Source of the DNA: Gammaproteobacteria bacterium
GTDB lineage: Bacteria; Pseudomonadota; Gammaproteobacteria; UBA12402
Length of the DNA stretch: 64,000 bases
Assembly: GCA_050123375.1 (NCBI GenBank)
Contig: JASFHF010000002.1
Span: forward strand, 28,364-92,363
Direction of reading: 5' to 3'
The stretch's first letter is position 1, and the number at the start of each line of letters is the position of its first letter. A model generated the notes under the pieces. It was not told where the DNA came from and did not search any database. It saw nothing but the letters and a program-made list of their open reading frames with translations. The translations under genes were made by a program, and so were the position numbers. Positions 4,311-63,159 of the stretch are shown here, one piece after another.

Positions 4311-5516
4311 ATGAACCAAAAAATCAATTACAAAATATTTTTCCCAATATTATTGATGTTTTATTCAATTGGGCAAATTACTTCGGATATGTATGTGCCT
4401 TCAATGCCGGCAATTACTTCTATATTTCATTCTACCAGTTCAATGATTCAATGGTCGATGTCATCATATATGTTGGGTTTTAGTTTATCGCAATTAGCAT
4501 ATGGGCCATTAACTGATCATTATGGAAGGAGGTTAATAATTTTGTTGGGATTGGCGGTCGGATTTATGGGTACGTTTGTTTGTTTTATGGCTGTTTCACC
4601 AGCGATGCTTATTATTGGTCGTTTAATTCAAGGAATTGGCATGGGCGTTGGCATTACGTTGGCTGGATCGGTAATGCGAGATTTATTTAGTGGTGCTGAG
4701 CTTGCAAAAATTGGCTCATTTATGTCGATAGGAGCAACGATATTAATTGGAGCTGGCCCCATTTTTGGTGGCTATTTTCAACATTATTTAGGTTGGCGAA
4801 GTGTGTTTGGTTTTTTGATGATTTATAGTTTAATTGTCTGGTTGATGATTTGTTTCTTTTTACCAGAAACCAGTTCAGAAGATAAACCGCCATATTTTAG
4901 TTTTAAAAAATTATTTTCCCATTTTCGTAAAATTTTAACTACTAAAATTTTTTTGGGAAATGTTTTATGTACAACATCTGCTTATGCAGGATGTTTGGCA
5001 TTTTACACGATGAGTACTTTTTTATTGCAAGAAAAAGTTGGGCTTACTGCGGTTGCGTACGGTTGGTCATGTATTGTTATTGTGTTGGCATTTCTAGTTG
5101 GTAGCATGATTAATGCACGTTACGTTATGAAAGTTGGAATAAATTTTATGATGCTTCTTGGTGCAGGTCTTATTGTAATAGCTGGGAGTTCCATGTTAAT
5201 TGCCGCATTGTTAGGATATATGAATATTTTTGTTATCGTAATTCCGGCAATGATCTATGGATTTGGAGCGATATTTTTAATGTCCAATGCATTTGCTGGA
5301 GCTTTAACGCCGTTTCCATATATTCCAGGCGCAGCTAATGCATTATATGGTAGTATCCAAATCGGTGGTGGTTTTATTGCAACATCTATAATCGCATCAT
5401 TTAAATTCAATAGCCAAGAACCATTAGCAATAATTTATTTGGTTATTGGTGTATTAGCGCTTGTTGCACTTAAGCAATTAGTGATGAAGGAAAAAGTTAA
5501 AACATCTTCGGCGTAA
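4311..5516 (+). CDS. Bcr/CflA family MFS transporter
   Basis: DMYVPSMP, GPLTDHYGRR motif A, LPET; about 12 hydrophobic segments. Confidence 0.9.
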   Translation: MNQKINYKIFFPILLMFYSIGQITSDMYVPSMPAITSIFHSTSSMIQWSMSSYMLGFSLSQLAYGPLTDHYGRRLIILLGLAVGFMGTFVCFMAVSPAMLIIGRLIQGIGMGVGITLAGSVMRDLFSGAELAKIGSFMSIGATILIGAGPIFGGYFQHYLGWRSVFGFLMIYSLIVWLMICFFLPETSSEDKPPYFSFKKLFSHFRKILTTKIFLGNVLCTTSAYAGCLAFYTMSTFLLQEKVGLTAVAYGWSCIVIVLAFLVGSMINARYVMKVGINFMMLLGAGLIVIAGSSMLIAALLGYMNIFVIVIPAMIYGFGAIFLMSNAFAGALTPFPYIPGAANALYGSIQIGGGFIATSIIASFKFNSQEPLAIIYLVIGVLALVALKQLVMKEKVKTSSA

Positions 5517-20275: not shown

Positions 20276-21112
20276 TTATCCCCCGATTTGGTACATCCAG
20301 CGTTCCAGGCAGGAGCCGCCCATTTTTGGTTTATGTTTGGCGGCCATTTCTAGAGCTTGTTTAATTCCTAGTTTGCGCACATTAAATTCGATGTCAGAAA
20401 ACAGGCATGGTTTGATAGAGCCGTCGCATAGTAATCTAATGCGATTGCAAATTTCGCAGTTGCCACTATTTCCGCCTTCAACACCAGAAAAATGGCCGTT
20501 TTTAAGATCCATTAGTTTAATAAAACGTGCTTTAATGTTTCTTTTGGCGGCATAATTTTTGATTGCTTGTGCATCAGCTTCTTGAGATGATTGTTCAATC
20601 ACGCAGTTTAATTTAATTGGATGTAGGCCTGCGTCAATTGCTGCATCAATGCCGGCTAAAACTTTTTTGATGTTTCCGCCTTTGGTTATTTCGCTAAATT
20701 TTTTTTGGTCTAAAGTGTCTAAACTAATATTAATTCGATCCAGACCGCTCTCAAATAATTTTTTAGCAAATTTATTTAGGAGTACGCCATTGGTGGTCAT
20801 GGCAACTTCAGTGATACCATTAATTTTTTTTAATGCTTGAATTAATTTGCAAATATTTTTGCGCAGCAGTGGTTCGCCGCCGGTTAATCTAATTTGATCA
20901 ATTCCCATGGTGGCAGCAACAGTTGCTACTTCGGCAATTTCTTCCAGAGATAGTATCTTTTTGTGTGGCAGCCATTTAACTTTGTGCGGCATGCAGTATT
21001 TGCAATGTAGATTGCAGCGGTCGGTAACTGAGATCCGCATTTTTGTTATTTGTCTGCCAAAATTGTCTTGCATAGTTGGTCCTGTGTGAAGTTCGCGATC
21101 CGAGTTGTCCAA
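20276..21112 (-). CDS. moaA: GTP 3',8-cyclase (short form)
   Basis: RISVTDRCNLHCKYC, TGGEP, CEICNRIRL..KPCL, C-terminal IGG. Confidence 0.93.
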   Translation of the reverse strand: MDNSDRELHTGPTMQDNFGRQITKMRISVTDRCNLHCKYCMPHKVKWLPHKKILSLEEIAEVATVAATMGIDQIRLTGGEPLLRKNICKLIQALKKINGITEVAMTTNGVLLNKFAKKLFESGLDRINISLDTLDQKKFSEITKGGNIKKVLAGIDAAIDAGLHPIKLNCVIEQSSQEADAQAIKNYAAKRNIKARFIKLMDLKNGHFSGVEGGNSGNCEICNRIRLLCDGSIKPCLFSDIEFNVRKLGIKQALEMAAKHKPKMGGSCLERWMYQIGG

Positions 21113-30453: not shown

Positions 30454-30521
30454 ATAACCCCTTGATTTTATTAATAGCTACGGGTGGGCTCGAACCACCG
30501 ACCTCGGCATTATGAGTGCCG
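30454..30521 (-). repeat. att site (68-bp direct repeat of 62974-63041, includes tRNA-Met 3' part)
   Basis: Identical 68 bp read directly at both loci. Confidence 0.97.
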
Positions 30522-53879: not shown

Positions 53880-54233
53880 TTGTTTCAAATGAAATTGAGG
53901 CAAAATGACATGAATAAGGTTAATTCAGAAAATTGTACGCATGATTCGCTTGGTTATTGCAAGAAAGCATTAGGATATGCACGGCTTCTTTCTTTTAGAT
54001 ATCATGATTTGCGGTTAACTAGACGTAAAACTCAGTGTTTAGCTTGCTTTATCTTAGATATGACAATAAGACAAATTTCTAAGGTGTTATCTGTTTTTCC
54101 TAGAACGATCCAGGATTATATTTCGCTTATAAAATCCAGATTTGATTGTAAATACAGATATCAAGTTACTATCACAGCTTTATTGAGTGGATTTCCTATT
54201 TGTAAATTTTTGTCAATTGATTATGAGGAATAG
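53880..54233 (+). CDS. Degenerate LuxR-type HTH protein
   Basis: LTRRKTQCL..MTIRQISKVL..PRTIQDYISLIKSRFDC; start uncertain. Confidence 0.6.
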   Translation: MFQMKLRQNDMNKVNSENCTHDSLGYCKKALGYARLLSFRYHDLRLTRRKTQCLACFILDMTIRQISKVLSVFPRTIQDYISLIKSRFDCKYRYQVTITALLSGFPICKFLSIDYEE

Positions 54234-54236
54234 CAT

Positions 54237-54458
54237 ATGTTAATTTTAACTAGAAAAAATGCAGAGAAGGTTATTATTGATGATTGTATTGAAGTCCATG
54301 TTATTAGAAGTGCAAATGGATGTGTAAAGCTAGGTTTTAAAGCGCCGAGCAATGTAAAAATATATAGGGAAGAAATTTATACTAAACAACTTAGTTGCAG
54401 TCAAAAAATAGATTTTGTAGGTGCGCAGCAACCAGCTCCTAATGGTTTGGTGCGATGA
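54237..54458 (+). CDS. csrA: Carbon storage regulator CsrA paralogue
   Basis: MLILTRK..EKVII.D.IEVHV..VKLGFKAP..VKIYREEIY. Confidence 0.88.
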   Translation: MLILTRKNAEKVIIDDCIEVHVIRSANGCVKLGFKAPSNVKIYREEIYTKQLSCSQKIDFVGAQQPAPNGLVR

Positions 54459-54487
54459 TTTTATTTAATTAAATTGGAGGTGTGTTT

Positions 54488-55090
54488 ATGGTCAAGAAAA
54501 TTTTTGTTAGTTTCGTTATTTTGTTTGGGTTGTTAATTTCTATTGCAGTTTATGCAAGTAAGGTTTGTCATTATTTGCCTGGGGTGGTTGTCTGTGGAAA
54601 AGGAAGTGTTCACAATGTATTAGCGGCGGGATACGCTAATTTGAATGGTACTACGGTTACTAATAGTATTAAAGTTGGCGGTTATCTTAGCGCTAAAAAC
54701 AGCAATCTAAATTTAGTAGCTTGTGGCGGGGGTGTGGATATAGATAAAAGTAATATTACAGGTAGTGTAGGTTTTGCGGGTGCAGCAATTCTTAACAAAG
54801 TTTCAATTAATGGTAAATGCAGTGAATTAGGCTTGCTAGTGGCTAAAGATGCTGATTTTGCTAATACAATTGAAATTACTGGTGAGATTACGCATTTTCA
54901 GCATTCCAAAACCGTAGCTATTCTTGTGCATCCGAGCGAGCATCCGCAAGAAAAAATTTATTTGGAAGATCAAACGGTCGTAAATGGCAATATTACTTTT
55001 GAAAGTGGTAATGGCATTGTTGTAAAAAGCGCTGATTCAACAATTCTAGGAAATGTAATAGGCGGTAAGATAATACCGGCAGAAAATTAA
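54488..55090 (+). CDS. Secreted hypothetical protein, beta-helix-like repeats
   Basis: Signal peptide then G/N/V-rich repeats; GGAGG RBS. Confidence 0.7.
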   Translation: MVKKIFVSFVILFGLLISIAVYASKVCHYLPGVVVCGKGSVHNVLAAGYANLNGTTVTNSIKVGGYLSAKNSNLNLVACGGGVDIDKSNITGSVGFAGAAILNKVSINGKCSELGLLVAKDADFANTIEITGEITHFQHSKTVAILVHPSEHPQEKIYLEDQTVVNGNITFESGNGIVVKSADSTILGNVIGGKIIPAEN

Positions 55091-55184
55091 AAAGAATTCA
55101 GGAGAATGACGAGCCTACGGAGGGCGAAACAAGGTGTTCGTGCGAACGAATGAATATTAATCGAAAATTGAAGAGGTATATGTC

Positions 55185-55253
55185 ATGAATATGATCGACA
55201 TACTTATCGAAGGCAATGACGCGTCTGCTTTATTCGGATGTGTTGGCGCATAA
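55185..55253 (+). CDS. 22-aa candidate RiPP precursor MNMIDILIEGNDASALFGCVGA
   Basis: AAGAGG RBS 8 nt upstream; directly precedes rSAM/SPASM gene; below ORF-track cutoff. Confidence 0.6.
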   Translation: MNMIDILIEGNDASALFGCVGA

Positions 55254-55346
55254 TCAAATAATAATAAAATATAAGTTCCAAACATCTCTTGTTGCTTTGC
55301 GCTAGAGGTGTTTGGACAATTATCAAATATATTGTTGAGGGTTAGC

Positions 55347-56675
55347 ATGGATAATTTAAAAACCAAATTAGCTGATTATATTTTATTAAGAGAAGAAGGA
55401 CAAAATATTATTTTATTTAATCAGTATAATGATGCTACAGTTAAAATTACCGCTGATTTATATAAAAAAATCAAAAAGGGTTATTTAAAAGATACTGAAG
55501 AAAACAAAAAAATAATTTATATTTTGCATCAAAATCGTTTATTAGATTGGGAGCAAAGCTATACATCAACGTCAGAAAAACCGCAACAATCTCAACAACG
55601 TACATTTTATTCTCCAATAATGCGATTACGCAGTGAAATAAATCCAATTAATGTTTTGTGGGCAATCACCTCAAAATGCAATTTAAGATGTTTATATTGT
55701 TTTCCTGATGTTAAGAACGTACAACAGGCTTTTATTTCCTTATCCTTAGAGGAGATTGATCAAATTACAGATCAAATTATTCAGTCGCAGGCTTTGCAAG
55801 TATTTATTAGTGGAGGTGAGCCTTTATTGGAGGCTGAGAAAGTTTGGAGAATTATCGAAAAGTTGTATAAACACAATGTAAAAAGCGGTGTTTTAAATAA
55901 TGGCACAATGATTAATGCGGGTATTATAGAGAAATTAAAATCTTATAATACAATTGTTGGTATTAGTTTGGATGCGCATAATGAAGAAATTAATTCGATA
56001 ACTAGAGGCAAAGGCGCTTTTGATAAAACAGTAAAAGGCGTTAAACTGTTAAAACAGGCTGATATTCGTACCAGTGTTCTTATTACATTAAGTAAATATA
56101 ATTTTGATTCTTTAGAGGCGCATATAAAATTTCTTTGTGATGATATGGGAATAAATAGTATTGTTATACAGGATTTAAGGCCGTTCGGAAGTAAAATTGA
56201 TTATGATAAAGCTCGTTTAACTATGACACAAGAGAATAAACTTTATGATAAAGTAATGAAGATAACGAATAGATACTCAAATGTTGATTTTAATCTTACG
56301 GAATTATTTTTATTTCCGCACTCAAAATACAAAACCAAAAAGAGCGGGAAGATTATGCAATGTCCTGCAGGATACAATTTTGCATATATAGATTTTTATG
56401 GTGATATGTATCCATGTACTCAATTGCCCACCATGAAGTTAGGCAACGTGTTGCAGGATGGAACGATTACAGAGTTATGGCGTTCTTCAAAAAACATGCA
56501 AAAATTAAGAACATTAAAGACGGAAAGCATTTGCAAAATTGATGGTTGTGCGGATTGTTCTCTTAATGAATTTTGTGATGGTGGGTGTAGGGGTGAGGCT
56601 GTTTTTTCTGGCAGAGGTTTATACGGCAGTGCCTCTCGTTGTCCCAAGGTAATGGGAATAGATATTAAGATATGA
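55347..56675 (+). CDS. Radical SAM/SPASM peptide maturase-like enzyme with N-terminal extension
   Basis: CNLRCLYC, SGGEPL; SPASM CPAG..YPC..CADC..FCDGGC..RCP. Confidence 0.92.
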   Translation: MDNLKTKLADYILLREEGQNIILFNQYNDATVKITADLYKKIKKGYLKDTEENKKIIYILHQNRLLDWEQSYTSTSEKPQQSQQRTFYSPIMRLRSEINPINVLWAITSKCNLRCLYCFPDVKNVQQAFISLSLEEIDQITDQIIQSQALQVFISGGEPLLEAEKVWRIIEKLYKHNVKSGVLNNGTMINAGIIEKLKSYNTIVGISLDAHNEEINSITRGKGAFDKTVKGVKLLKQADIRTSVLITLSKYNFDSLEAHIKFLCDDMGINSIVIQDLRPFGSKIDYDKARLTMTQENKLYDKVMKITNRYSNVDFNLTELFLFPHSKYKTKKSGKIMQCPAGYNFAYIDFYGDMYPCTQLPTMKLGNVLQDGTITELWRSSKNMQKLRTLKTESICKIDGCADCSLNEFCDGGCRGEAVFSGRGLYGSASRCPKVMGIDIKI

Positions 56676-57940
56676 AAGATTCTATAATACAAAGGCGGCA
56701 ACTATTAGTACTTATCATTATTATAATGATTGGGGTTTTATCGCAGTTTGCTACTGATAATTATACTCCTTCTCTTCCAAGCATCGCGGCAAGTTTGCAT
56801 ACAAATAATGCGTTGATAAAGTTATCAATTGGAATCTATTTTTTAAGTATGGGAATTTCTCAAATATTTTATGGAATTTTGGGTGATATTTATGGAAGAA
56901 AACCATTAATATTATTTGGATTAATAATTTTTTTATTATCTAGTTTTGTGGTATCTATTTCTTCAACAGCAGAGTGTTTTATTTTTGCGCGTTTACTTCA
57001 AGGTATTGGAATGGGCGCTCCAGTCGCTTTATATCGTGCAATTTTACGTGATATATCTTTTGGCAAGCAGTTTGCAAAATTTTGTTCATATTTAATGATG
57101 TTTATTTCAGTGGCGCCAATTATAGCACCGATTACTGGTGGTTATATTCAAGCTTTTTGGGGTTGGCGGGCAAATTTTTTCTTGTTAGTTATACTTGCAA
57201 GCATTGTGAGTTTCTTTGTTAAGTGCTGGTTGCCAGAGACTTTAATTACAAATAAAATACGAGATTTTTCTGCATTTAATGTCATTGGTATTTATCGGAA
57301 ATTATTATCAAATAAAATTTTTATCATATGTGCGCTTGCTTCAAGTTTAGCATTATCAGCACGTATTATATACATAATTATATCAGCATTTTTATTTCAA
57401 AATATTTTACATGTAACGCCAGTAGTTTATGGCTGGCTTATTTTTCTTGCTGCATTAATGCCAATTTTTAGCGGTGCGTTAAATGCTCAGTTAGTTGAAA
57501 AGATGGGTGTTAATAAGATGCTTATCATCGGCGGAATTATCATGTTGTGTGGTAGTTTAATATTATTATTTTATGGACTAACTTTTAAGTTATCTGTCAG
57601 TGTTATTTTATTGCCAGTAATGTTAGTTTTATTTGGTGCTAGTATAGTATTTGTAAATTTTACCGCGTTGGCTTTTAGTCATATATCAAAATTTGCTGGC
57701 ACAGCTGGGTCGTTTTATAGTGGTATTCAAATTATTATTTTATCATTGGCAACCATTTTAGTTGCTTATATCCCTAACAATAATCAAATGCCAATGACGA
57801 TTTTAATTTTGTTTTGCAGCATACTAATTGTTTTAAGTATTTTTATGATTATGAAAATGACAGCTAGGCATAGTGTGCTTGATGAAAATTTTGATAAGAA
57901 AGCACGCAAAAATCTTTATTTATTAGATGGGAAATGTTAA
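56672..57940 (+). CDS. Bcr/CflA family MFS transporter
   Basis: DNYTPSLP, GDIYGRK, LPET; ATGA overlap with rSAM stop. Confidence 0.9.
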   Translation: MKDSIIQRRQLLVLIIIIMIGVLSQFATDNYTPSLPSIAASLHTNNALIKLSIGIYFLSMGISQIFYGILGDIYGRKPLILFGLIIFLLSSFVVSISSTAECFIFARLLQGIGMGAPVALYRAILRDISFGKQFAKFCSYLMMFISVAPIIAPITGGYIQAFWGWRANFFLLVILASIVSFFVKCWLPETLITNKIRDFSAFNVIGIYRKLLSNKIFIICALASSLALSARIIYIIISAFLFQNILHVTPVVYGWLIFLAALMPIFSGALNAQLVEKMGVNKMLIIGGIIMLCGSLILLFYGLTFKLSVSVILLPVMLVLFGASIVFVNFTALAFSHISKFAGTAGSFYSGIQIIILSLATILVAYIPNNNQMPMTILILFCSILIVLSIFMIMKMTARHSVLDENFDKKARKNLYLLDGKC

Positions 57941-57976
57941 ATTATGTCATGTCATTTTTCAAGATAATTAAGCACT

Positions 57977-60900
57977 ATGATTACTGAAGTTTTTATTCGT
58001 AGGCCGATTTTTACTATAGTGATAAGTTTAGTTATTCTTTTAGCTGGATTGCTTGCTTATCTTAATTTATCAGTTCGTTTATATCCTAAAGTAAATACTG
58101 CAGTTATAACTGTTTATGTCAGTTATCCTGGTGCGGATGCGGCATTGATGGAAGGGGCTGTTACCACTCCTATTGAAAATGCTTTAGGCAGTGTTGAAGG
58201 TTTAGATTATATTACTTCGGCAAGTCGTCAAGGATATTGTTATGCTTCGTTGCATCTTAAATTGGATTACGATATCAATACAGCACTAAATGAAGTTAAT
58301 GCTAAATTGGCTGCTGTTCGTGATGAATTGCCAATAGAGGTTCATGACCCACAAATAATGAAAGAGGATCCTGATGCGCGGCCTATTATGTTTTTAAATT
58401 TTGCAAGTAACACTTTAGCAACGATAAAAATAGCAAATTACTTATATAGAGTAGTGCAGCCTCAATTGCAAACCATTTCTGGAGTATCTACTGTTAATAT
58501 TTTTAGTTCGGATTATGCAATGCGAATTTGGCTTAATCCTTATTTAATGGCAGCTCACGATGTTACGCCTTGGGATATAGAAAATGTTTTTTCTAAAAAT
58601 AACTTACAAATTCCAGGAGGGCAGTTGGAAAATTCATCCCAGCTCATTAATGTTAAAACTATTAGTGATCTTAACACTGCTGCACAATTTAATAATATAA
58701 TATTAAAAAGTGAAAATGGGAATTTAGTCCGTTTAAATGATATTGGTAAAACAGAGCTAGGCGCTCAGAATAATACTATTATAACTTATGTAAACGGAAA
58801 GCCTTCAGTCCCTGTTGGAATTATTCCTGCATCGAACGCTAATTATTTATTTGTAGCTAAAGATGTAAAATTATTATTATCTCGTTTAGTAAAAAACTTA
58901 CCCACTGGCATTTCTGCTTCAATATTTTGGGATAATACTAAATTTATTTATGCTTCTATTAAAGAAATTAAAATTGCAATTTTTGAAGCGGCAATTTGTG
59001 TTATTTTAGTTATTTTTATGTTTATTGGTTCATGGCGTATTTTATTAATTCCAGTAATGTCCATTCCGCTTTCTTTAATTGGTATTTGCGCGGTGATGTA
59101 TTTAATGAATTATAGTTTGAATACCATGACATTTTTAGCATTTGTACTGGCCATAGGAATGGTTGTTGATGATGCAATTGTTGTTTCAGAAAACATACAT
59201 CGGCATATAGTAAGCGGCAAAGATCCAATGAATGCCGCTATTTTGGGTTCTAAAGAAATTCAATTTGCTATCATTGCCATGACTTTGACTTTAGCTGCGG
59301 TATATATTCCTATTGCTTTTTTACATGGATTAATTGGTGCACTATTCAAAGAATTTGCATTTACTTTAGCTGGTGCTGTTATCATTTCTGGTTTTGTTGC
59401 ACTTACGCTTTTGCCCATGATGTGTTCTAAAATAATGACGAAGAATGATGTAAATAATTATTTGCCGGCTAAAATTAATCAATTTTCGGAAAGAATTATA
59501 AGTTTTTATGAAAATATGCTAATAAAAATTTTATACATGAGAAGGTTGGTAATTTTTATTTTACCTATAATTATCGTTGGTTGTATATTATTTTATCATT
59601 TTATTCCTAGAGAGCTTGCACCCAAAGAAGATACTGGTACCATAGTTACCTTTGCGTATACGCCAACTTCAGCGAATATAAATTATACCGCTAAATATAC
59701 TAAACTTTTAGAGCCTATTTTTAAGAAAGTTCCTGAAGTGGAAAATTACGTTATTGTAAATGGTGATGGTGGTAACGCAAATACTGCTTTTGCTTTATTA
59801 GATTTCAAGCCGTGGAGCAAGAGAAAACGAACAAGTGATGAAATCATTAAGTCTATGTCATCAGTGATGATGGCAATACCAGAAATTATAGCACAGCCAA
59901 CTAATCCATCTGAAATTCCAGGGGCAAGCTCTTGGAAAGGGTCAGTTAATATTGAATTACAGACTACTGGTAATTATTTGGAGTTAAACAATATTTTACA
60001 AAAATTTTTACGGGCAGCACATGACAATAAGTTTTTAGTTAATTTGAATACAAATTTGAAGCTTGATCAGAGGCAAGACAATATTTTAATTGACAGAATA
60101 AAAGCTGCTGATATGGGAATATCAATAAAAGATATAGGATATGCAGTTAACTTGGCTATGGGACAGCCAACCGTAAGTCACTTTAACATGTTTGGTCGTA
60201 ATTATGATATTGTTCCTCAACTTTTGCCGCAGTTTAGAAAATCTGACGTTGCAATTAATTCTTTACAGTTACGCACAAATGGTGGCAATTTAGTTCCATT
60301 GTCTAATTTAATTAAGATTCAGAAAACTATTAGTCCGCAAAGCTTAAATCATTTTCAGCAATTGCGTTCAGCTTCGATAACAGCGGGACTTGCTCCGGGA
60401 TATACTTTAGGTGAAGCATTGAAGTTTTTTCAAAAGTTGTCGAAAAAAATATTACCACAGGATATGCAAATTAATTATAGCGGTGAATCGCGTTTATATT
60501 TTCAATCTAGCAGCCAAATACATATTTTATTTATTTTTTCTGTTTTGGTCATTTTTTTGGTACTGGCAGCTCAATTTGAAAGTTTTCGTAATCCATTTAT
60601 AGTGTTACTTGCTGTTCCGTTTTCATTATTTGGTGCATTGCTGATTATGTTCTTGACTGGTTGTACATTGAATATATATTCTGAAATTGGAATAATTACT
60701 TTAGTTGGATTGATAAGCAAGCATGGGATTTTAATGGTAGAATTTGCTAACCAACTTCAGTTTAAAGGTAAAGACGTTAAGGGTGCTATCATCACTGCAG
60801 CTTTGATTAGATTAAGGCCAATTTTGATGACTACAGCAGCGATGGTTTTAGGGGCAATACCTTTAGTGTTTGCTAATGGTGCTGGCGCTAATAGTCGACG

Positions 60901-61021
60901 ACAAATTGGATTAGTTATCGTAGGTGGTATGTTGATTGGAACTTTTTTTACCATTTTTATGTTACCGACGATGTATACTTATTTGGCTAAATGTAGGTTT
61001 GGCAGTAGAGAAATTTTATAG
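57977..61021 (+). CDS. RND efflux permease (AcrB/AcrD/AcrF family)
   Basis: FIRRPIF, GMVVDDAIVVSEN, AQFES, RLRPILMT. Confidence 0.95.
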   Translation: MITEVFIRRPIFTIVISLVILLAGLLAYLNLSVRLYPKVNTAVITVYVSYPGADAALMEGAVTTPIENALGSVEGLDYITSASRQGYCYASLHLKLDYDINTALNEVNAKLAAVRDELPIEVHDPQIMKEDPDARPIMFLNFASNTLATIKIANYLYRVVQPQLQTISGVSTVNIFSSDYAMRIWLNPYLMAAHDVTPWDIENVFSKNNLQIPGGQLENSSQLINVKTISDLNTAAQFNNIILKSENGNLVRLNDIGKTELGAQNNTIITYVNGKPSVPVGIIPASNANYLFVAKDVKLLLSRLVKNLPTGISASIFWDNTKFIYASIKEIKIAIFEAAICVILVIFMFIGSWRILLIPVMSIPLSLIGICAVMYLMNYSLNTMTFLAFVLAIGMVVDDAIVVSENIHRHIVSGKDPMNAAILGSKEIQFAIIAMTLTLAAVYIPIAFLHGLIGALFKEFAFTLAGAVIISGFVALTLLPMMCSKIMTKNDVNNYLPAKINQFSERIISFYENMLIKILYMRRLVIFILPIIIVGCILFYHFIPRELAPKEDTGTIVTFAYTPTSANINYTAKYTKLLEPIFKKVPEVENYVIVNGDGGNANTAFALLDFKPWSKRKRTSDEIIKSMSSVMMAIPEIIAQPTNPSEIPGASSWKGSVNIELQTTGNYLELNNILQKFLRAAHDNKFLVNLNTNLKLDQRQDNILIDRIKAADMGISIKDIGYAVNLAMGQPTVSHFNMFGRNYDIVPQLLPQFRKSDVAINSLQLRTNGGNLVPLSNLIKIQKTISPQSLNHFQQLRSASITAGLAPGYTLGEALKFFQKLSKKILPQDMQINYSGESRLYFQSSSQIHILFIFSVLVIFLVLAAQFESFRNPFIVLLAVPFSLFGALLIMFLTGCTLNIYSEIGIITLVGLISKHGILMVEFANQLQFKGKDVKGAIITAALIRLRPILMTTAAMVLGAIPLVFANGAGANSRRQIGLVIVGGMLIGTFFTIFMLPTMYTYLAKCRFGSREIL

Positions 61022-61033
61022 GTACATTTTTAT

Positions 61034-62065
61034 ATGTTAAAAAAATTTTTAATGTTGTTAACAATTGTTACTGCATTTAGTCCAGTATGCATGACCTATA
61101 GTAAGGAGAAATTATCTTCAGAGCCTGTAAAAGTGAAAACTGTCAAGATTAAGTATCAGAAACAGAAGCAGCAATTAATTGCAATAGGAACGCTTGTTGG
61201 TATGCCTGGTATTGTAGTACGCTCTGAAGTTTCGGGTCGTGTTACAAAAATTTATTTTAAATCTGGTGAGAGAGTTAAGATGGGCGCTCCATTACTTAAG
61301 CTAGATTATGACGATGTAAATGCACGGTTAGCACAAGCTCAAGCCAGGTTAGATTTGGCAAAATTACAACTTGGTCGTTATAGAAAATTATACAAAAAAC
61401 ACTTTTTTTCTAAGGATAATTTTGATAAATCAAAAACCGATTTGGCCACTTATCAAGCGGAAGTTGCTCAATATAAAGCCGAATTAAAGAAGAGAATTAT
61501 CTTAGCACCTTTTAGTGGTAATTTAGGCATATTTAAGGTAAATATTGGTGATTATATAGGTATTGGGCAGGACATAGTTAGTTTAAATTCATTAAATCCT
61601 ATTGGAGTTGATTTTAGCATTCCAGAATTATATTTAAGTAAAATCTCTGTAGGTCAGGAAGTGTTATTAAAAAGTGATTCTTATCCTAATGAAAATTTTG
61701 AGGGAAAAGTTATTGCGTGTGAATCAAAGATAGATCAGTCGACGCGTACTTTAAAAATACGTGCTAGTGTTATCAACAAGAGAAATGAGCTTTTGCCGGG
61801 TGGATTTGTTAAAGTGGTTTTGAGAATAGGCAGACAATTAAAAATTATTACTATCCCACAAATAGCAGTGATATATTCTGTAAATGGAGATTATGTTTAT
61901 AGAGTCGTTGGCAACAAGGCGCAAAAAACTAAAATAGTTTTAGCCGGTAATTATGATGAACAGGATGTTGTTACTTCGGGCTTGAAGGTTGGGGATAAAA
62001 TTGTAGTTGCTGGTCAATTAAAAATACATAATGGTTCTTTGATTTCTGTAGTAAATAATCATTAG
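61034..62065 (+). CDS. RND periplasmic adaptor (membrane fusion protein)
   Basis: SEVSGRVTKI, ILAPFSG, DFSIPE, LLPGGFV. Confidence 0.93.
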   Translation: MLKKFLMLLTIVTAFSPVCMTYSKEKLSSEPVKVKTVKIKYQKQKQQLIAIGTLVGMPGIVVRSEVSGRVTKIYFKSGERVKMGAPLLKLDYDDVNARLAQAQARLDLAKLQLGRYRKLYKKHFFSKDNFDKSKTDLATYQAEVAQYKAELKKRIILAPFSGNLGIFKVNIGDYIGIGQDIVSLNSLNPIGVDFSIPELYLSKISVGQEVLLKSDSYPNENFEGKVIACESKIDQSTRTLKIRASVINKRNELLPGGFVKVVLRIGRQLKIITIPQIAVIYSVNGDYVYRVVGNKAQKTKIVLAGNYDEQDVVTSGLKVGDKIVVAGQLKIHNGSLISVVNNH

Positions 62066-62076
62066 TTTATCAAATG

Positions 62077-62727
62077 TTATTGAGATTCTATATTATTGCT
62101 AGTGATTATACCATACTGCAATGCTAACCGGGTTAATTCAACATCACTGCTAACTTCAAGTTTTTCAAAAATGCGGTAACGATAAGTATTAACAGTTTTA
62201 GCGCTTAAATGCAGTGTTGCAGCAATTTGCGGCGCTTTTTGTCCTTTGATTATCATATTCATAACTTGGAATTCCCGATCAGATAGTTTATCAAGAGGTG
62301 ATGAATTGTTATTAAGCGCAAGTTTTTGCGCAATTTCAGGACTTACATACCGTTGACCAGCATGTACTTTTTTGATTGCGTCGATTAGATCTTTTGGTTT
62401 GCAGTCTTTAGTGATATAGCCAGCAGCATTTGCTTCCAAAAGTTTTAGAGGAAAAATTTTATTATCACAAACAGTTAAAATTAAAATTTTAATGTCAGGT
62501 ATTAGTTGTAATAATTTGCGTGTTGCTTCAAAGCCGTCCATGTTTGGCATTTTTAGATCCATTAATACTATTTCCGGTTTGTATTTTTTTGCCAGAGCTA
62601 TAGCTTCTGCTCCATCTGAACCTTGTTCCGGCACAATTTCTATATCTTTGACACTTTGCAATTGGCTGGCAATGCCGCTGCGAATTAATTCGTGATCATC
62701 TACTATTAAGATTTTGATTTTACTCAT
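62077..62727 (-). CDS. UvrY/GacA/LetA-like response regulator (paralogue, not followed by uvrC)
   Basis: ILIVDDHELIR, VLMDLKMP, GYITK, LSDREFQV, KTVNTYRYRIFEKL. Confidence 0.92.
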   Translation of the reverse strand: MSKIKILIVDDHELIRSGIASQLQSVKDIEIVPEQGSDGAEAIALAKKYKPEIVLMDLKMPNMDGFEATRKLLQLIPDIKILILTVCDNKIFPLKLLEANAAGYITKDCKPKDLIDAIKKVHAGQRYVSPEIAQKLALNNNSSPLDKLSDREFQVMNMIIKGQKAPQIAATLHLSAKTVNTYRYRIFEKLEVSSDVELTRLALQYGIITSNNIESQ

Positions 62728-62994
62728 GGTGATATTCCATTATATAAGTTAATATTGTATTAATTATGGACGATTAATTAATATTTGCCAGGAATTATTT
62801 ATAGAATATTTTATAGGATATATATTATACAAAAAACGTGGTTTTTTTGCTTGAAACAAGAACAGATCAGTTGCGCCCGATTTTTGAGATCCTATGCTTA
62901 CTTATCATTATTTGCTAATCAATTTGCCACATTATTGCCACATTCAGATTTATCAAGATCAAGGATCGGTGTCATAACCCCTTGATTTTATTAA

Positions 62995-63068
62995 TAGCTA
63001 CGGGTGGGCTCGAACCACCGACCTCGGCATTATGAGTGCCGCGCTCTAACCAGCTGAGCTACGTAGCC
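62995..63068 (-). tRNA. tRNA-Met(CAT), elongator type, CCA not encoded
   Basis: GGCTACGTAGCTCAGCTGGTTAGAGCGCGGCACTCATAATGCCGAGGTCGGTGGTTCGAGCCCACCCGTAGCTA forms a full cloverleaf. Confidence 0.95.
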
Positions 63069-63159
63069 ATATTGTAAAGTATAGGCGCTTTTGGTGACCG
63101 GGGCTATTCTGACTGGTCGAAAAAGGCTTGTCAAGCACTACAATTTACCATAAAATAAT

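What the first reader, a model, noticed from the sequence alone, without database searches (positions are those of the whole stretch)
55100..62065. Candidate new RiPP system: unannotated 22-aa precursor, rSAM/SPASM maturase, MFS and RND exporters
Seen: a tiny ORF 55185-55253 (MNMIDILIEGNDASALFGCVGA) with a good RBS, an acidic leader-like N-half and an apolar core holding one Phe and one Cys. A hairpin (55277-55316) follows, then a rSAM/SPASM gene with an extra N-terminal domain, translationally coupled to an MFS and followed by RND genes. Known: this layout is typical of rSAM-modified RiPPs. The peptide matches no class I recognise (not PqqA, MftA or SCIFF). Inference: Cys thioether or F-G-C cyclophane crosslink in an unusually short precursor; the leader has a CsrA-type hairpin.
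Basis: partly seen in the sequence, partly recalled or inferred. Interest (0 to 1): 0.9.

Follow-up and report, generated by a model that had tools for sequence, protein, structure and literature searches.

The report
New radical-SAM modified-peptide gene cluster
The 22-codon gene is real: it is very probably the precursor of a small peptide that the neighbouring radical-SAM enzyme modifies before export, and it belongs to a rare family with no curated name, found from bacteria to archaea, whose chemistry is untested.

Summary
The 22-aa ORF (55185-55253) is not a chance ORF. In 19 of 22 homologous loci with enough upstream DNA, from Gammaproteobacteria, Myxococcota, Bdellovibrionota, Bacteroidota, a cultured Bradyrhizobium and Bathyarchaeota, the same enzyme clade sits beside one to six short ORFs. 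These share a beta-strand-like leader (h-E-V-h-h) and a core with two invariant glycines (G-x-x-G; typically [W/F]-G-V-G-G or Φ-G-G-C).

The window peptide aligns to them without gaps. Orthologous precursors differ mostly by synonymous changes. The enzyme has an N-terminal RRE-like domain, a radical-SAM core and a 7-Cys SPASM domain. It reaches no NCBIfam cut-off, and it lacks the GYW signature of cyclopropyl synthases.

A LuxR-type regulator, a 200-aa secreted protein and RND/MFS pumps recur in the closest loci.

Cys19 is not conserved. A Cys after the second Gly co-occurs with a second, thioether-type rSAM that this locus has lost. The "CsrA-type hairpin" is not supported, although a CsrA paralogue lies in the operon. 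The cluster sits in a 32.5-kb tRNA-Met island.

Verdict: a real, uncharacterised rSAM-RiPP family with unknown chemistry.

The parts
53880..54233 (+). Small LuxR-type (GerE HTH) regulator, 117 aa; probable first gene of the cluster
   Evidence: Pfam GerE at E 1.9e-5. It is 59% identical to the regulator that heads the six-precursor locus L088. Only 3 nt separate it from the next gene.
54237..54458 (+). CsrA paralogue, 73 aa, inside the operon
   Evidence: Pfam CsrA at 3e-19. It scores 63 bits against TIGR00202, just under the cut-off of 70. The closest relative, L051, carries an Hfq gene in the corresponding upstream region.
54482..55090 (+). Conserved 202-aa protein of unknown function with a signal-peptide-like hydrophobic N-terminus (judged by eye from the alignment; no predictor run), two conserved Cys and a beta-helix-like repeat pattern
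   Evidence: No Pfam or NCBIfam hit. Homologues at 39-46% identity lie directly upstream of the precursor genes in L051, L089, L093 and L003.
55170..55176 (+). Shine-Dalgarno sequence GAAGAGG of the precursor gene
   Evidence: Read from the sequence; 8 nt before the ATG at 55185.
55185..55253 (+). Precursor peptide gene, 22 aa: leader about residues 1-13 (MNMIDILIEGNDA), core about ALFGCVGA, with G18 and G21 family-invariant
   Evidence: Gap-free alignment with 16 precursors from other loci. The closest relative, L051, has MNTEFEVLIVGDEESAMFGVGGC at the same position. Orthologous precursors show purifying selection. The leader-plus-core pattern is unique in the genome.
55277..55316 (+). Stable intergenic hairpin between the precursor and maturase genes; probably an attenuator or mRNA-stabilising element
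   Evidence: -20.5 kcal/mol, z -5.2. No T-run follows. L051 has a hairpin of unrelated sequence at the same place.
55347..56675 (+). Radical SAM/SPASM peptide maturase ('B-type'), 442 aa: RRE-like domain about residues 1-66, CxxxCxxC at C111/C115/C118, 7-Cys SPASM (C339, C357, C401, C404, C410, C414, C432)
   Evidence: Pfam. No NCBIfam cut-off is reached; the best is MftC at 141 bits against 265. Invariant residues are from the alignment of 42 family members. The AF2 model has pLDDT 89.9. Foldseek finds SuiB, CteB, TigE and SkfB. The N-terminal domain alone finds RRE domains.
56672..57940 (+). MFS efflux transporter (Bcr/CflA subfamily), translationally coupled to the maturase gene
   Evidence: TIGR00710 at 233 bits, above its cut-off of 200.9. 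The ATGA overlap is shown. MFS exporters of other subfamilies lie in L088, L091, L003 and L009, and a 406-aa ORF at the same place in L046 was not scanned.
57977..61021 (+). RND efflux permease, 1014 aa
   Evidence: Pfam ACR_tran at 927 bits. An RND permease 35% identical to it also follows the maturase in L051.
61034..62065 (+). RND periplasmic adaptor, 343 aa
   Evidence: TIGR01730 at 246 bits, above its cut-off of 94.9.
62974..63040 (.). Right copy of a 67-bp exact direct repeat (left copy at 30454-30520) that overlaps the tRNA-Met gene (62994-63069, minus strand); boundary of the island carrying the cluster
   Evidence: Island GC is 31.6% against about 35% in the flanks.

Best explanation
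This is a RiPP (ribosomally made, post-translationally modified peptide) cluster of a rare family for which I found no curated model and no paper. It runs from about 53880 to 62065.

Shown by sequence and comparison:
- The 22-aa ORF is the precursor.
- The adjacent 442-aa enzyme has three domains: RRE-like, radical SAM and SPASM.
- The gene neighbourhood (LuxR-type regulator, 200-aa secreted protein, precursor, hairpin, maturase, efflux pumps) recurs in the closest relatives.

Inferred mechanism:
1. The leader strand (I-D-I-L-I-E, family motif h-E-V-h-h) docks on the N-terminal RRE.
2. The radical-SAM cluster (C111/C115/C118) makes 5'-deoxyadenosyl radical, which abstracts a hydrogen within the core F17-G18-C19-V20-G21-A22. 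The most likely site is the side-chain-bearing residue between the two invariant glycines.
3. The two SPASM clusters complete the redox step.

My preferred outcome, held with low confidence, is an intramolecular cross-link of that residue. The partner would be either the preceding aromatic ring (a three-residue cyclophane over Gly, fitting [W/F]-G-V in loci that have only this enzyme) or sulfur. The main alternative is a change with no mass shift, such as epimerisation.

After leader removal by an unidentified protease, a peptide of about 6-9 residues would be exported by the coupled MFS pump and probably the RND pump. The cluster was acquired with a tRNA-Met island. Relative to its nearest kin it has lost a second, thioether-type rSAM enzyme, and its peptide lacks the Cys that accompanies that enzyme.
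For: 1. Precursor conservation. 19 of 22 distinct homologous loci with usable upstream DNA carry one to six same-strand short ORFs with the shared leader and G-x-x-G core. The window peptide aligns to them without gaps, and G18 and G21 are invariant.

2. Selection. Orthologous precursors in L001 and L002 differ at 12 synonymous against 1 non-synonymous codon, and at 15 against 3.

3. Specificity. The leader-plus-core pattern occurs once in the whole genome.

4. Enzyme. It has CxxxCxxC and a 7-Cys SPASM, both invariant in 42 members. The full-length model matches the RiPP maturases SuiB, CteB, TigE and SkfB. The N-terminal domain alone ranks the RRE domains TbiB1, ThcOx, PbtF and lasso B1 first.

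5. Synteny.
- The closest locus, L051 (55% identity), has the 186-aa homologue of the 202-aa protein, then the precursor, a hairpin, the rSAM, a methyltransferase and an RND permease.
- The L088 regulator is 59% identical to the window's LuxR-type gene.
- MFS exporters lie in at least four other loci.

6. Co-variation. All 10 loci that have both a second 'A-type' rSAM and a found precursor carry Cys right after the second Gly, allowing a one-residue insertion in one of the six L088 copies. The A-type enzyme is closest to the Clo7bot, TIGR04463, CefB and PapB models. Only 1 of 10 loci with the B-type enzyme alone has that Cys.

7. Phylogeny. The window and L051 are sisters (99/98 support). They sit inside an otherwise A+B clade (97/94), so the A-type enzyme was lost here.
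Against: - There is no expression or mass-spectrometry evidence.
- The window core FGCVGA departs from the family consensus: Cys replaces the usual Val/Ile and Val replaces Gly. The alignment register is ambiguous by one residue.
- No protease gene lies in the window cluster.
- Pfam PqqD does not detect the N-terminal domain. The fold match to RREs is modest (best E 7e-3, TM 0.5-0.6).
- The MFS pumps in different loci belong to different subfamilies, so the exporters were recruited independently.
- Four close relatives (L088, L089, L003, L093) lack an aromatic residue before the first Gly. This argues against a universal cyclophane reaction.
- No precursor was found in three loci (L007/L045, L041, L046).
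Confidence: 0.85

Rival explanations
1. The maturase makes a Cys19 thioether (sactionine or ranthionine type).
For: Cys19 is the only Cys in the peptide. The enzyme's Aux I cluster has only three invariant Cys ligands (7-Cys SPASM); from my recollection of the CteB structure, not checked here, an open iron site of that kind can bind a substrate thiolate. L088's first precursor shares the G-C-V-G-[S/A] string.
Against: Most loci with only this enzyme type have Cys-free cores ([W/F]GVGG[S/G/V]). Position 19 is V, I, L, M or A elsewhere. The thioether-like enzyme of the family is the A-type, which is absent here. PapB, SCIFF and sactipeptide models score far below their cut-offs.
Confidence: 0.15
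2. The enzyme makes a non-cross-linking change at the residue between the invariant glycines, for example L-to-D epimerisation, cyclopropanation or another side-chain change of Val. The product would have 0 Da (epimerisation) or -2 Da (cyclopropanation) without a macrocycle.
For: The only universally conserved core features are G-x-x-G around an aliphatic residue (V, I, L, M, A or C). Neither the aromatic residue nor the Cys is universal. TvgB converts Val in TVGG repeats to cyclopropylglycine (PMC9062424), and that motif resembles GVGG.
Against: None of the 42 family members has the GYW motif reported as strictly conserved in, and specific to, cyclopropyl synthases (PMC10878394). No epimerase model appears among the 25 best NCBIfam hits shown. 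Ala or Cys at this position cannot give a cyclopropane.
Confidence: 0.25
3. The peptide is the scaffold of a cofactor-like small molecule, as in the PQQ or mycofactocin pathways, rather than an exported peptide product.
For: The best NCBIfam hit is the mycofactocin maturase MftC (141 bits). From memory, not checked here, PqqA and MftA are similarly tiny, and MftA ends in G-V-Y, which recalls the Gly-Val context of this core.
Against: The MftC and PqqE cut-offs are missed by a wide margin (141 against 265; 72 against 381). No MftB/D/E/F-like or PqqB/C/D-like genes are present. The cluster has efflux pumps, multi-copy precursor arrays (six in L088) and long-form precursors with extended tails. 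The family's distribution is sporadic and island-borne.
Confidence: 0.05
4. The small ORF is a regulatory leader peptide or attenuator uORF for the rSAM operon, or a chance ORF, and the enzyme's substrate lies elsewhere.
For: A strong hairpin follows the ORF, as in attenuators. There is no expression data.
Against: The amino-acid motif is conserved across phyla while the DNA diverges. Relatives have tandem arrays and 70-116-aa long forms with the same core. The pattern is unique in the genome.
Confidence: 0.03
5. The RND pump, and perhaps the MFS pump, is ordinary multidrug-efflux cargo of the island rather than a dedicated exporter of the peptide.
For: Both pumps match generic multidrug families. 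The MFS subfamily differs between loci. An RND pump was seen in only 2 of about 22 loci.
Against: The MFS start overlaps the maturase stop. An RND permease also follows the cluster in the closest relative. All genes from 53880 to 62065 are on one strand with gaps of 94 nt or less.
Confidence: 0.3

Closest known systems
RRE-containing radical SAM/SPASM RiPP maturases with solved structures: SuiB (streptide, Lys-Trp C-C cross-link; 5V1S/5V1T), CteB (SCIFF thioether; 5WGG)
   Same: The same three-domain layout: an N-terminal winged-helix RRE, a radical-SAM barrel with CxxxCxxC, and a SPASM domain with two auxiliary clusters. These are the best structural matches over the full length. The gene sits next to a short precursor.
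   Different: Sequence identity is only 15-19%. The precursor has no KGDGW or Cys-rich motif. The leader is far shorter (about 13 aa).
Triceptides / three-residue cyclophane-forming enzymes (GrrM/OscB, YhhB, FxsB, AmcB, Xye types)
   Same: In loci that carry only this enzyme, the core reads aromatic-X-X ([W/F]-G-V; F-G-C in the window). This is the Ω1-X2-X3 pattern that such enzymes cross-link from the ring to Cβ of X3. They too are rSAM/SPASM enzymes acting on short precursors.
   Different: No cyclophane-synthase model is among the enzyme's 25 best NCBIfam hits. Several close relatives have no aromatic residue at that position. The chemistry is untested.
Cyclopropylglycine synthases TvgB/TigE (TVGG and TIGSVS repeat precursors; PDB 8VPO)
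   Same: The motif is an aliphatic residue followed by Gly-Gly (GVGG against TVGG). They are RRE-rSAM-SPASM enzymes, and TigE is among the top structural matches.
   Different: The GYW motif that ligates Aux I, reported as strictly conserved in and specific to that family (PMC10878394), is absent from all 42 members. The core is single-copy, not a repeat. Ala, Cys and Met occur at the Val position.
Mycofactocin system (MftA/MftC)
   Same: MftC is the best-scoring curated model. MftA is also a very short precursor; I recall a Gly-Val context at its modification site, but did not check this.
   Different: 141 bits against a cut-off of 265. There is no C-terminal Tyr and there are no mftB/D/E/F genes. 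Efflux pumps are present instead.
GggB/streptosactin-type sactisynthases (Cys-S to Ser/Gly-Cα; PMC11851443)
   Same: A Gly-rich core with a Cys, as in the Φ-G-G-C cores of loci with two rSAM enzymes.
   Different: In this family the Cys co-varies with the other (A-type) enzyme, which the window lacks. No sequence comparison with GggB could be run.

Membership tests
rSAM/SPASM RiPP maturase with RRE (general kind) | CxxxCxxC radical-SAM cluster motif | tested here: met
   C111, C115 and C118 are invariant in 42 family members. Pfam Radical_SAM at 8e-26.
rSAM/SPASM RiPP maturase with RRE (general kind) | SPASM 7-Cys motif (C-x17-C with G-x4-C; CxxCx5Cx3C; a final C) | tested here: met
   C339, C357, C401, C404, C410, C414 and C432 are all invariant. 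Pfam SPASM at 1.6e-9.
rSAM/SPASM RiPP maturase with RRE (general kind) | N-terminal RiPP recognition element (PqqD-like winged helix) | tested here: inconclusive
   The model shows three beta-strands followed by helices at pLDDT above 90 for most of residues 11-60. Foldseek on the domain alone ranks TbiB1, ThcOx, PbtF and lasso-B1 RREs first, but only weakly (E 7e-3, TM 0.5-0.58). Pfam PqqD gives no hit.
rSAM/SPASM RiPP maturase with RRE (general kind) | Adjacent, conserved short precursor gene | tested here: met
   Found in 19 of 22 loci. Alignment; selection.
Mycofactocin maturase MftC (TIGR03962) | Score at or above the curated cut-off; precursor ending in GVY; mftB/D/E/F neighbours | tested here: not met
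   141 bits against 265. The peptide ends in GCVGA. The neighbouring genes encode efflux pumps.
PqqE (TIGR02109) | Score at or above the cut-off; PqqA with an E-x3-Y motif | tested here: not met
   72 bits against 381. The peptide has no Tyr.
Ranthipeptide, SCIFF and sactipeptide maturases (PapB NF047865, StsB NF045574, AlbA NF012164; the SCIFF model TIGR03974 is not among the 25 best hits) | Score at or above the cut-off; Cys-rich precursor | tested here: not met
   115 against 340; 112 against 625; 87 against 850. The peptide has a single, non-conserved Cys.
Cyclopropyl synthases (TvgB/TigE) | GYW motif that supplies the Tyr ligand to Aux I (PMC10878394) | tested here: not met
   0 of 42 family members contain GYW.
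Triceptide three-residue cyclophane synthases | Aromatic-X-X core motif in the precursor | tested here: inconclusive
   Present in the window (F-G-C) and in most loci with only this enzyme (W/F-G-V). Absent in L088, L089, L003 and L093.
Triceptide three-residue cyclophane synthases | Ring-to-Cβ C-C bond in the product | not testable with these tools
   Requires MS/MS and NMR of the modified peptide.

The most novel reading that the evidence does not exclude
The B-type enzyme carries out a peptide modification not yet described, at the residue held between two invariant glycines (G-Φ-x-G). One example would be a Phe/Trp-to-Val/Cys carbon-carbon bridge across a glycine; another would be a glycine-flanked D- or otherwise altered residue. 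The result would be one of the smallest rSAM RiPPs known (core of about 6-9 residues, leader of about 13). In this host-associated-looking, AT-rich small genome the peptide would be an exported signal or toxin, controlled by the LuxR-type regulator and CsrA paralogue of its own island.
Probability: 0.3. Interest if true: 0.8.

Novelty: new variant of a known kind. Interest (0 to 1): 0.62.

Why it matters
Radical-SAM/SPASM enzymes have repeatedly yielded new peptide chemistry, including streptide, darobactin, triceptides and cyclopropylglycine. This report defines a compact family that no curated model names. It covers only about 20-25 clusters at 50% identity among 1.84 billion representative proteins.

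The family comes with a clear precursor motif and an internal natural experiment: a Cys that comes and goes with a second enzyme. It also offers very short substrates that are cheap to synthesise, and at least one cultured host (Bradyrhizobium sp. Pa8).

That makes the chemistry directly testable. It also shows that 22-codon genes of real function are present in small, AT-rich, island-rich genomes. The in-operon CsrA paralogue, with Hfq at the same place in the sister locus, hints at post-transcriptional control of a RiPP cluster; I know of no precedent, but did not look for one.

Tried and rejected
- The search for related loci with the single protein in genome contigs found nothing. The profile-based scan worked.
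- Pfam and NCBIfam scans of ten precursor peptides at E up to 10 gave nothing meaningful.
- Pfam PqqD on 19 N-terminal domains gave no hit.
- I considered membership of the TvgB/TigE cyclopropyl synthases because GVGG resembles TVGG. I rejected it because GYW is absent.
- I considered MftC-like chemistry and rejected it on score, C-terminus and gene context.
- The CsrA-binding hairpin in the 5' leader is not supported. The 260-nt fold has z -1.7. There are two GGA triplets in 94 nt, none at the SD.
- The sigma-70 promoter scan found no more sites than shuffled sequence (13 against 12.8).
- Five literature searches found no description of this family or motif. Subscription-only papers are not searched, so a description elsewhere cannot be excluded.
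- This scan's earlier findings hold nothing similar by sequence.
- No precursor was found in L007/L045, L041 or L046 with relaxed motif scans. They may lie outside the fetched DNA or be too divergent.
- A second weak rSAM match in the same genome, in the window at about 20627-21034 on the minus strand, was not followed.

Full report
OBSERVATION

- The ORF 55185-55253 encodes MNMIDILIEGNDASALFGCVGA. A GAAGAGG Shine-Dalgarno sequence lies 8 nt upstream.
- A 13-bp-stem hairpin at 55277-55316 folds at -20.5 kcal/mol, with z -5.2 against shuffles. No T-run follows it and no intrinsic terminator is called.
- The next gene, 55347-56675, encodes a 442-aa protein. Pfam finds Radical_SAM at residues 107-263 and SPASM at 339-404, and leaves about 100 N-terminal residues unassigned.
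- The stop of that gene overlaps the start of a Bcr/CflA-type MFS gene (ATGA).
- An RND permease (57977-61021) and an RND adaptor (61034-62065) follow.
- The peptide matches no Pfam or NCBIfam model.

IS THE TINY ORF REAL?

I ran that test.

The homologues. A word-indexed search of 5.8 billion proteins found about 45 full-length homologues at 35-54% identity that include the N-terminal domain. A profile of 42 of them retrieved loci from species genomes and metagenomes, and look-ups by exact sequence added more.

The count. In 19 of 22 distinct loci with usable upstream DNA, one to six short same-strand ORFs share a pattern with the window peptide. Examples:
- L051, the closest relative: MNTEFEVLIVGDEESAMFGVGGC
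- L003: MIEILVNGSNDVVVGGIAGCEGS
- L093: MNEMFEVLVKGNTAIPVGGIAGCQGS
- L089: MIEVIVTASDGIKTGGIGGCSGG (two copies)
- L091: MNETMIEVCVDGGGILPLWGIAGCGVDV
- L088: six tandem copies, such as MSNEKTVEVILSGNDGIVGSGLGGCVAG and MKNHNTVEVLLSGSDGIVGNGCVGSCIGG
- L001 and L002: two copies each, ending ...AAQTDIVGWGAGGC...
- L008 (Myxococcota): MNTQTKDYEIVCGPSKPMDFGVGGS
- L009 (Oligoflexia): ...AAAGVGGHASGVGGGGVNA
- 70-116-aa long forms ending ...PGGxxxWGVGG... or ...FGIGGC... These occur in a Bacteroidota MAG, two archaeal MAGs (one labelled Bathyarchaeota), several metagenome contigs and the cultured Bradyrhizobium sp. Pa8. One of them has two repeats.

The alignment. A multiple alignment places the window peptide without gaps. 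The leader motif is h-[E/D]-[V/I]-h-h. The core has two invariant glycines, G18 and G21 of the window peptide.

Selection and specificity. Orthologous precursors differ mainly at synonymous sites: 12 synonymous against 1 non-synonymous codon, and 15 against 3, between L001 and L002. A regular expression for leader plus core hits exactly once in six frames of the 1.97-Mb genome, and that hit is this ORF. The ORF is therefore a real, selected coding sequence and the cognate partner of the enzyme.

THE ENZYME

- CxxxCxxC (C111/C115/C118) and the seven SPASM cysteines are invariant in the family.
- No NCBIfam model reaches its cut-off. The best are MftC (141 bits against 265), WgkB (128 against 650), ScmE and PapB.
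- PDB sequence hits are weak (CteB at 1.7e-11).
- An AlphaFold2 model with mean pLDDT 89.9 matches SuiB, CteB, TigE and SkfB over the full length.
- The N-terminal 100 residues, modelled alone, rank RRE domains first: TbiB1 with bound leader, ThcOx, PbtF and lasso-peptide B1. The scores are modest (E 7e-3, TM 0.5-0.58). Pfam PqqD does not detect the domain. I call the domain RRE-like, not proven.
- The family is rare. In a filter-free profile search of 1.84 billion representatives, only about 20-25 clusters score above 300 bits over the full length. Only 3 of 101 related genomes carry it.

CONTEXT

The cluster is larger than the finding's coordinates.
- The 117-aa LuxR-type gene at 53880 is 59% identical to the regulator heading L088. 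That is higher than the identity between the two enzymes (51%, where P0003 is the L088 enzyme).
- The 202-aa protein at 54482-55090 has a signal-peptide-like hydrophobic N-terminus (judged by eye; no predictor was run), two conserved Cys, and no known domain. It has homologues directly upstream of the precursors in L051, L089, L093 and L003.
- A CsrA paralogue lies between those two genes. L051 has Hfq in that region.
- L051 also has a hairpin of unrelated sequence after its precursor. Downstream it has a methyltransferase and an RND permease 35% identical to the window's.
- Other loci carry MFS_3/EntS-like pumps, S9 peptidases, Rce1-like CPBP proteases and a third, degenerate rSAM-like gene.
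- The whole cluster lies at the tRNA-proximal end of a 32.5-kb island. The island is bounded by a 67-bp exact direct repeat (30454-30520 and 62974-63040) that includes part of tRNA-Met. Its GC content is 31.6%, against about 35% in the flanks.

WHAT THE COMPARATIVE DATA SAY ABOUT CHEMISTRY

Most gammaproteobacterial relatives have a second rSAM/SPASM gene ('A-type') directly upstream of the window-type ('B-type') enzyme. The A-type is closest to models of Cys-targeting maturases: Clo7bot, TIGR04463, CefB, PapB and SCIFF.

The Cys tracks the A-type enzyme. Every locus that has the A-type enzyme and a found precursor (10 of 10) has Cys right after the second invariant Gly, allowing a one-residue insertion in one of the six L088 copies. 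Among the 10 loci with the B-type enzyme alone, only L051 has it, and the others have A, S, G, V or H at that position. The tree makes the window and L051 sisters (99/98 support) inside an otherwise A+B clade (97/94), so the A-type enzyme was lost here. I infer that A makes a Cys thioether and B does something that does not need Cys.

The B-only cores. In loci with B alone the core is [W/F]-G-V-G-G in 8 of 10. L009 keeps G-V-G-G without the aromatic residue. The window is the other outlier, with F-G-C-V-G-A. It shares G-C-V-G-[S/A] with one L088 paralogue.

Reading for and against a cyclophane. An aromatic-Gly-Val motif fits a three-residue cyclophane (ring to Cβ of the third residue). Against it, L088, L089, L003 and L093 have no aromatic residue at that position, although their B enzymes are 44-51% identical to the window's. 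A reaction common to all B enzymes would therefore centre on the aliphatic residue between the glycines. Candidates are epimerisation, or cross-linking to whichever acceptor is available.

Cyclopropylglycine ruled out at family level. This chemistry (TvgB on TVGG; PMC9062424) was attractive. However, the GYW motif said to be strictly conserved in that family and specific to it (PMC10878394) is absent from all 42 members.

What can be claimed. The evidence does not settle the chemistry. My rough odds are:
- a cross-link at residue 19 or 20, about 45%;
- a change without a cross-link, about 25%;
- glycine Cα chemistry or something else for the rest.

CLAIMS NOT SUPPORTED

The 'CsrA-type hairpin' in the leader is not supported. 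The 5' region has two GGA triplets in 94 nt, none at the SD, and its fold is not better than shuffles (z -1.7). The link to CsrA is instead genetic: a CsrA paralogue lies in the same operon.

KNOWN OR NEW?

No curated model covers the enzyme or the precursors. Five full-text searches found nothing on this motif or family, and the scan's own notes hold no look-alike. Subscription literature could not be searched.

The system works like an RRE-dependent rSAM/SPASM RiPP pathway. It is not a member of the mycofactocin, PQQ, SCIFF/ranthipeptide, sactipeptide or cyclopropyl-synthase families, on features tested here.

LIMITS

No mass spectrometry is available, the window cluster has no protease gene, and the alignment register of the window core is uncertain by one residue.

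Noticed in passing
window 30454-30520 and 62974-63040; tRNA-Met 62994-63069 (-): A 67-bp exact direct repeat that includes part of the tRNA-Met gene brackets a 32.5-kb island. The island's GC content is 31.6%, against about 35% outside it. The RiPP cluster lies at the tRNA-proximal end of the island.
   Followed up: partly
window 54482-55090 (+); L051 2189-2749; L089 82-666; L093 2233-2832; L003 1330-1968: A conserved ~200-aa protein family with no Pfam or NCBIfam match always sits just upstream of the short-form precursor genes. It has a signal-peptide-like hydrophobic N-terminus (by eye), the motif VCxYxPGxVxCGxGxVxNV and a C-terminal FESGNGxV...GxVIGGKI. One member gives a weak Bactofilin hit (E 0.017). 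Its role (immunity, carrier or target) is unknown.
   Followed up: partly
window 54237-54458 (+); L051 423-653: A CsrA paralogue lies inside the cluster's operon, 3 nt after the LuxR-type gene. The sister locus L051 carries an Hfq gene in the same upstream region. Two different RNA-binding regulators therefore sit beside one RiPP cluster type.
   Followed up: no
L088 1621-2546, 2661-4004, 5335-6345; L044; L001/L002; L093: Relatives carry tandem arrays of up to six precursor genes, a second thioether-like 'A-type' rSAM, and a third rSAM-like gene (about 330 aa) with only weak Radical_SAM matches. Cys after the second invariant Gly is present in every locus that has the A-type enzyme, and in only one of ten loci that lack it.
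   Followed up: partly
L092 (Bradyrhizobium sp. Pa8, CP176767.1 754750-766030), gene 4725-4934: This was the only cultured host seen. It has an annotated 69-aa long-form precursor (...KLAWGVGGSSGGTS), the B-type rSAM, a 369-aa rSAM-like protein and an Rce1-like protease, next to IS66 transposase genes. It is a practical entry point for experiments.
   Followed up: partly
L047 149-511: A long-form precursor has two complete leader-like and core repeats (...PFEVITEPGGRVAWGVGGSK... twice) in one ORF. This suggests that one polypeptide can yield two products.
   Followed up: no
window 62077-62727 (-): A GacA/UvrY-family response regulator (NF007018 at 251 bits, under its cut-off of 280) lies convergent to the end of the cluster and still inside the island. 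Together with the CsrA paralogue it could form an island-borne Gac/Csr-type circuit.
   Followed up: no
window about 20627-21034 (-) (G000:C2:48990-49397): This is a second, weak radical-SAM match in the same window: 32% identity to residues 105-239 of the maturase, E 1.3e-10, in a 280-aa open frame.
   Followed up: no
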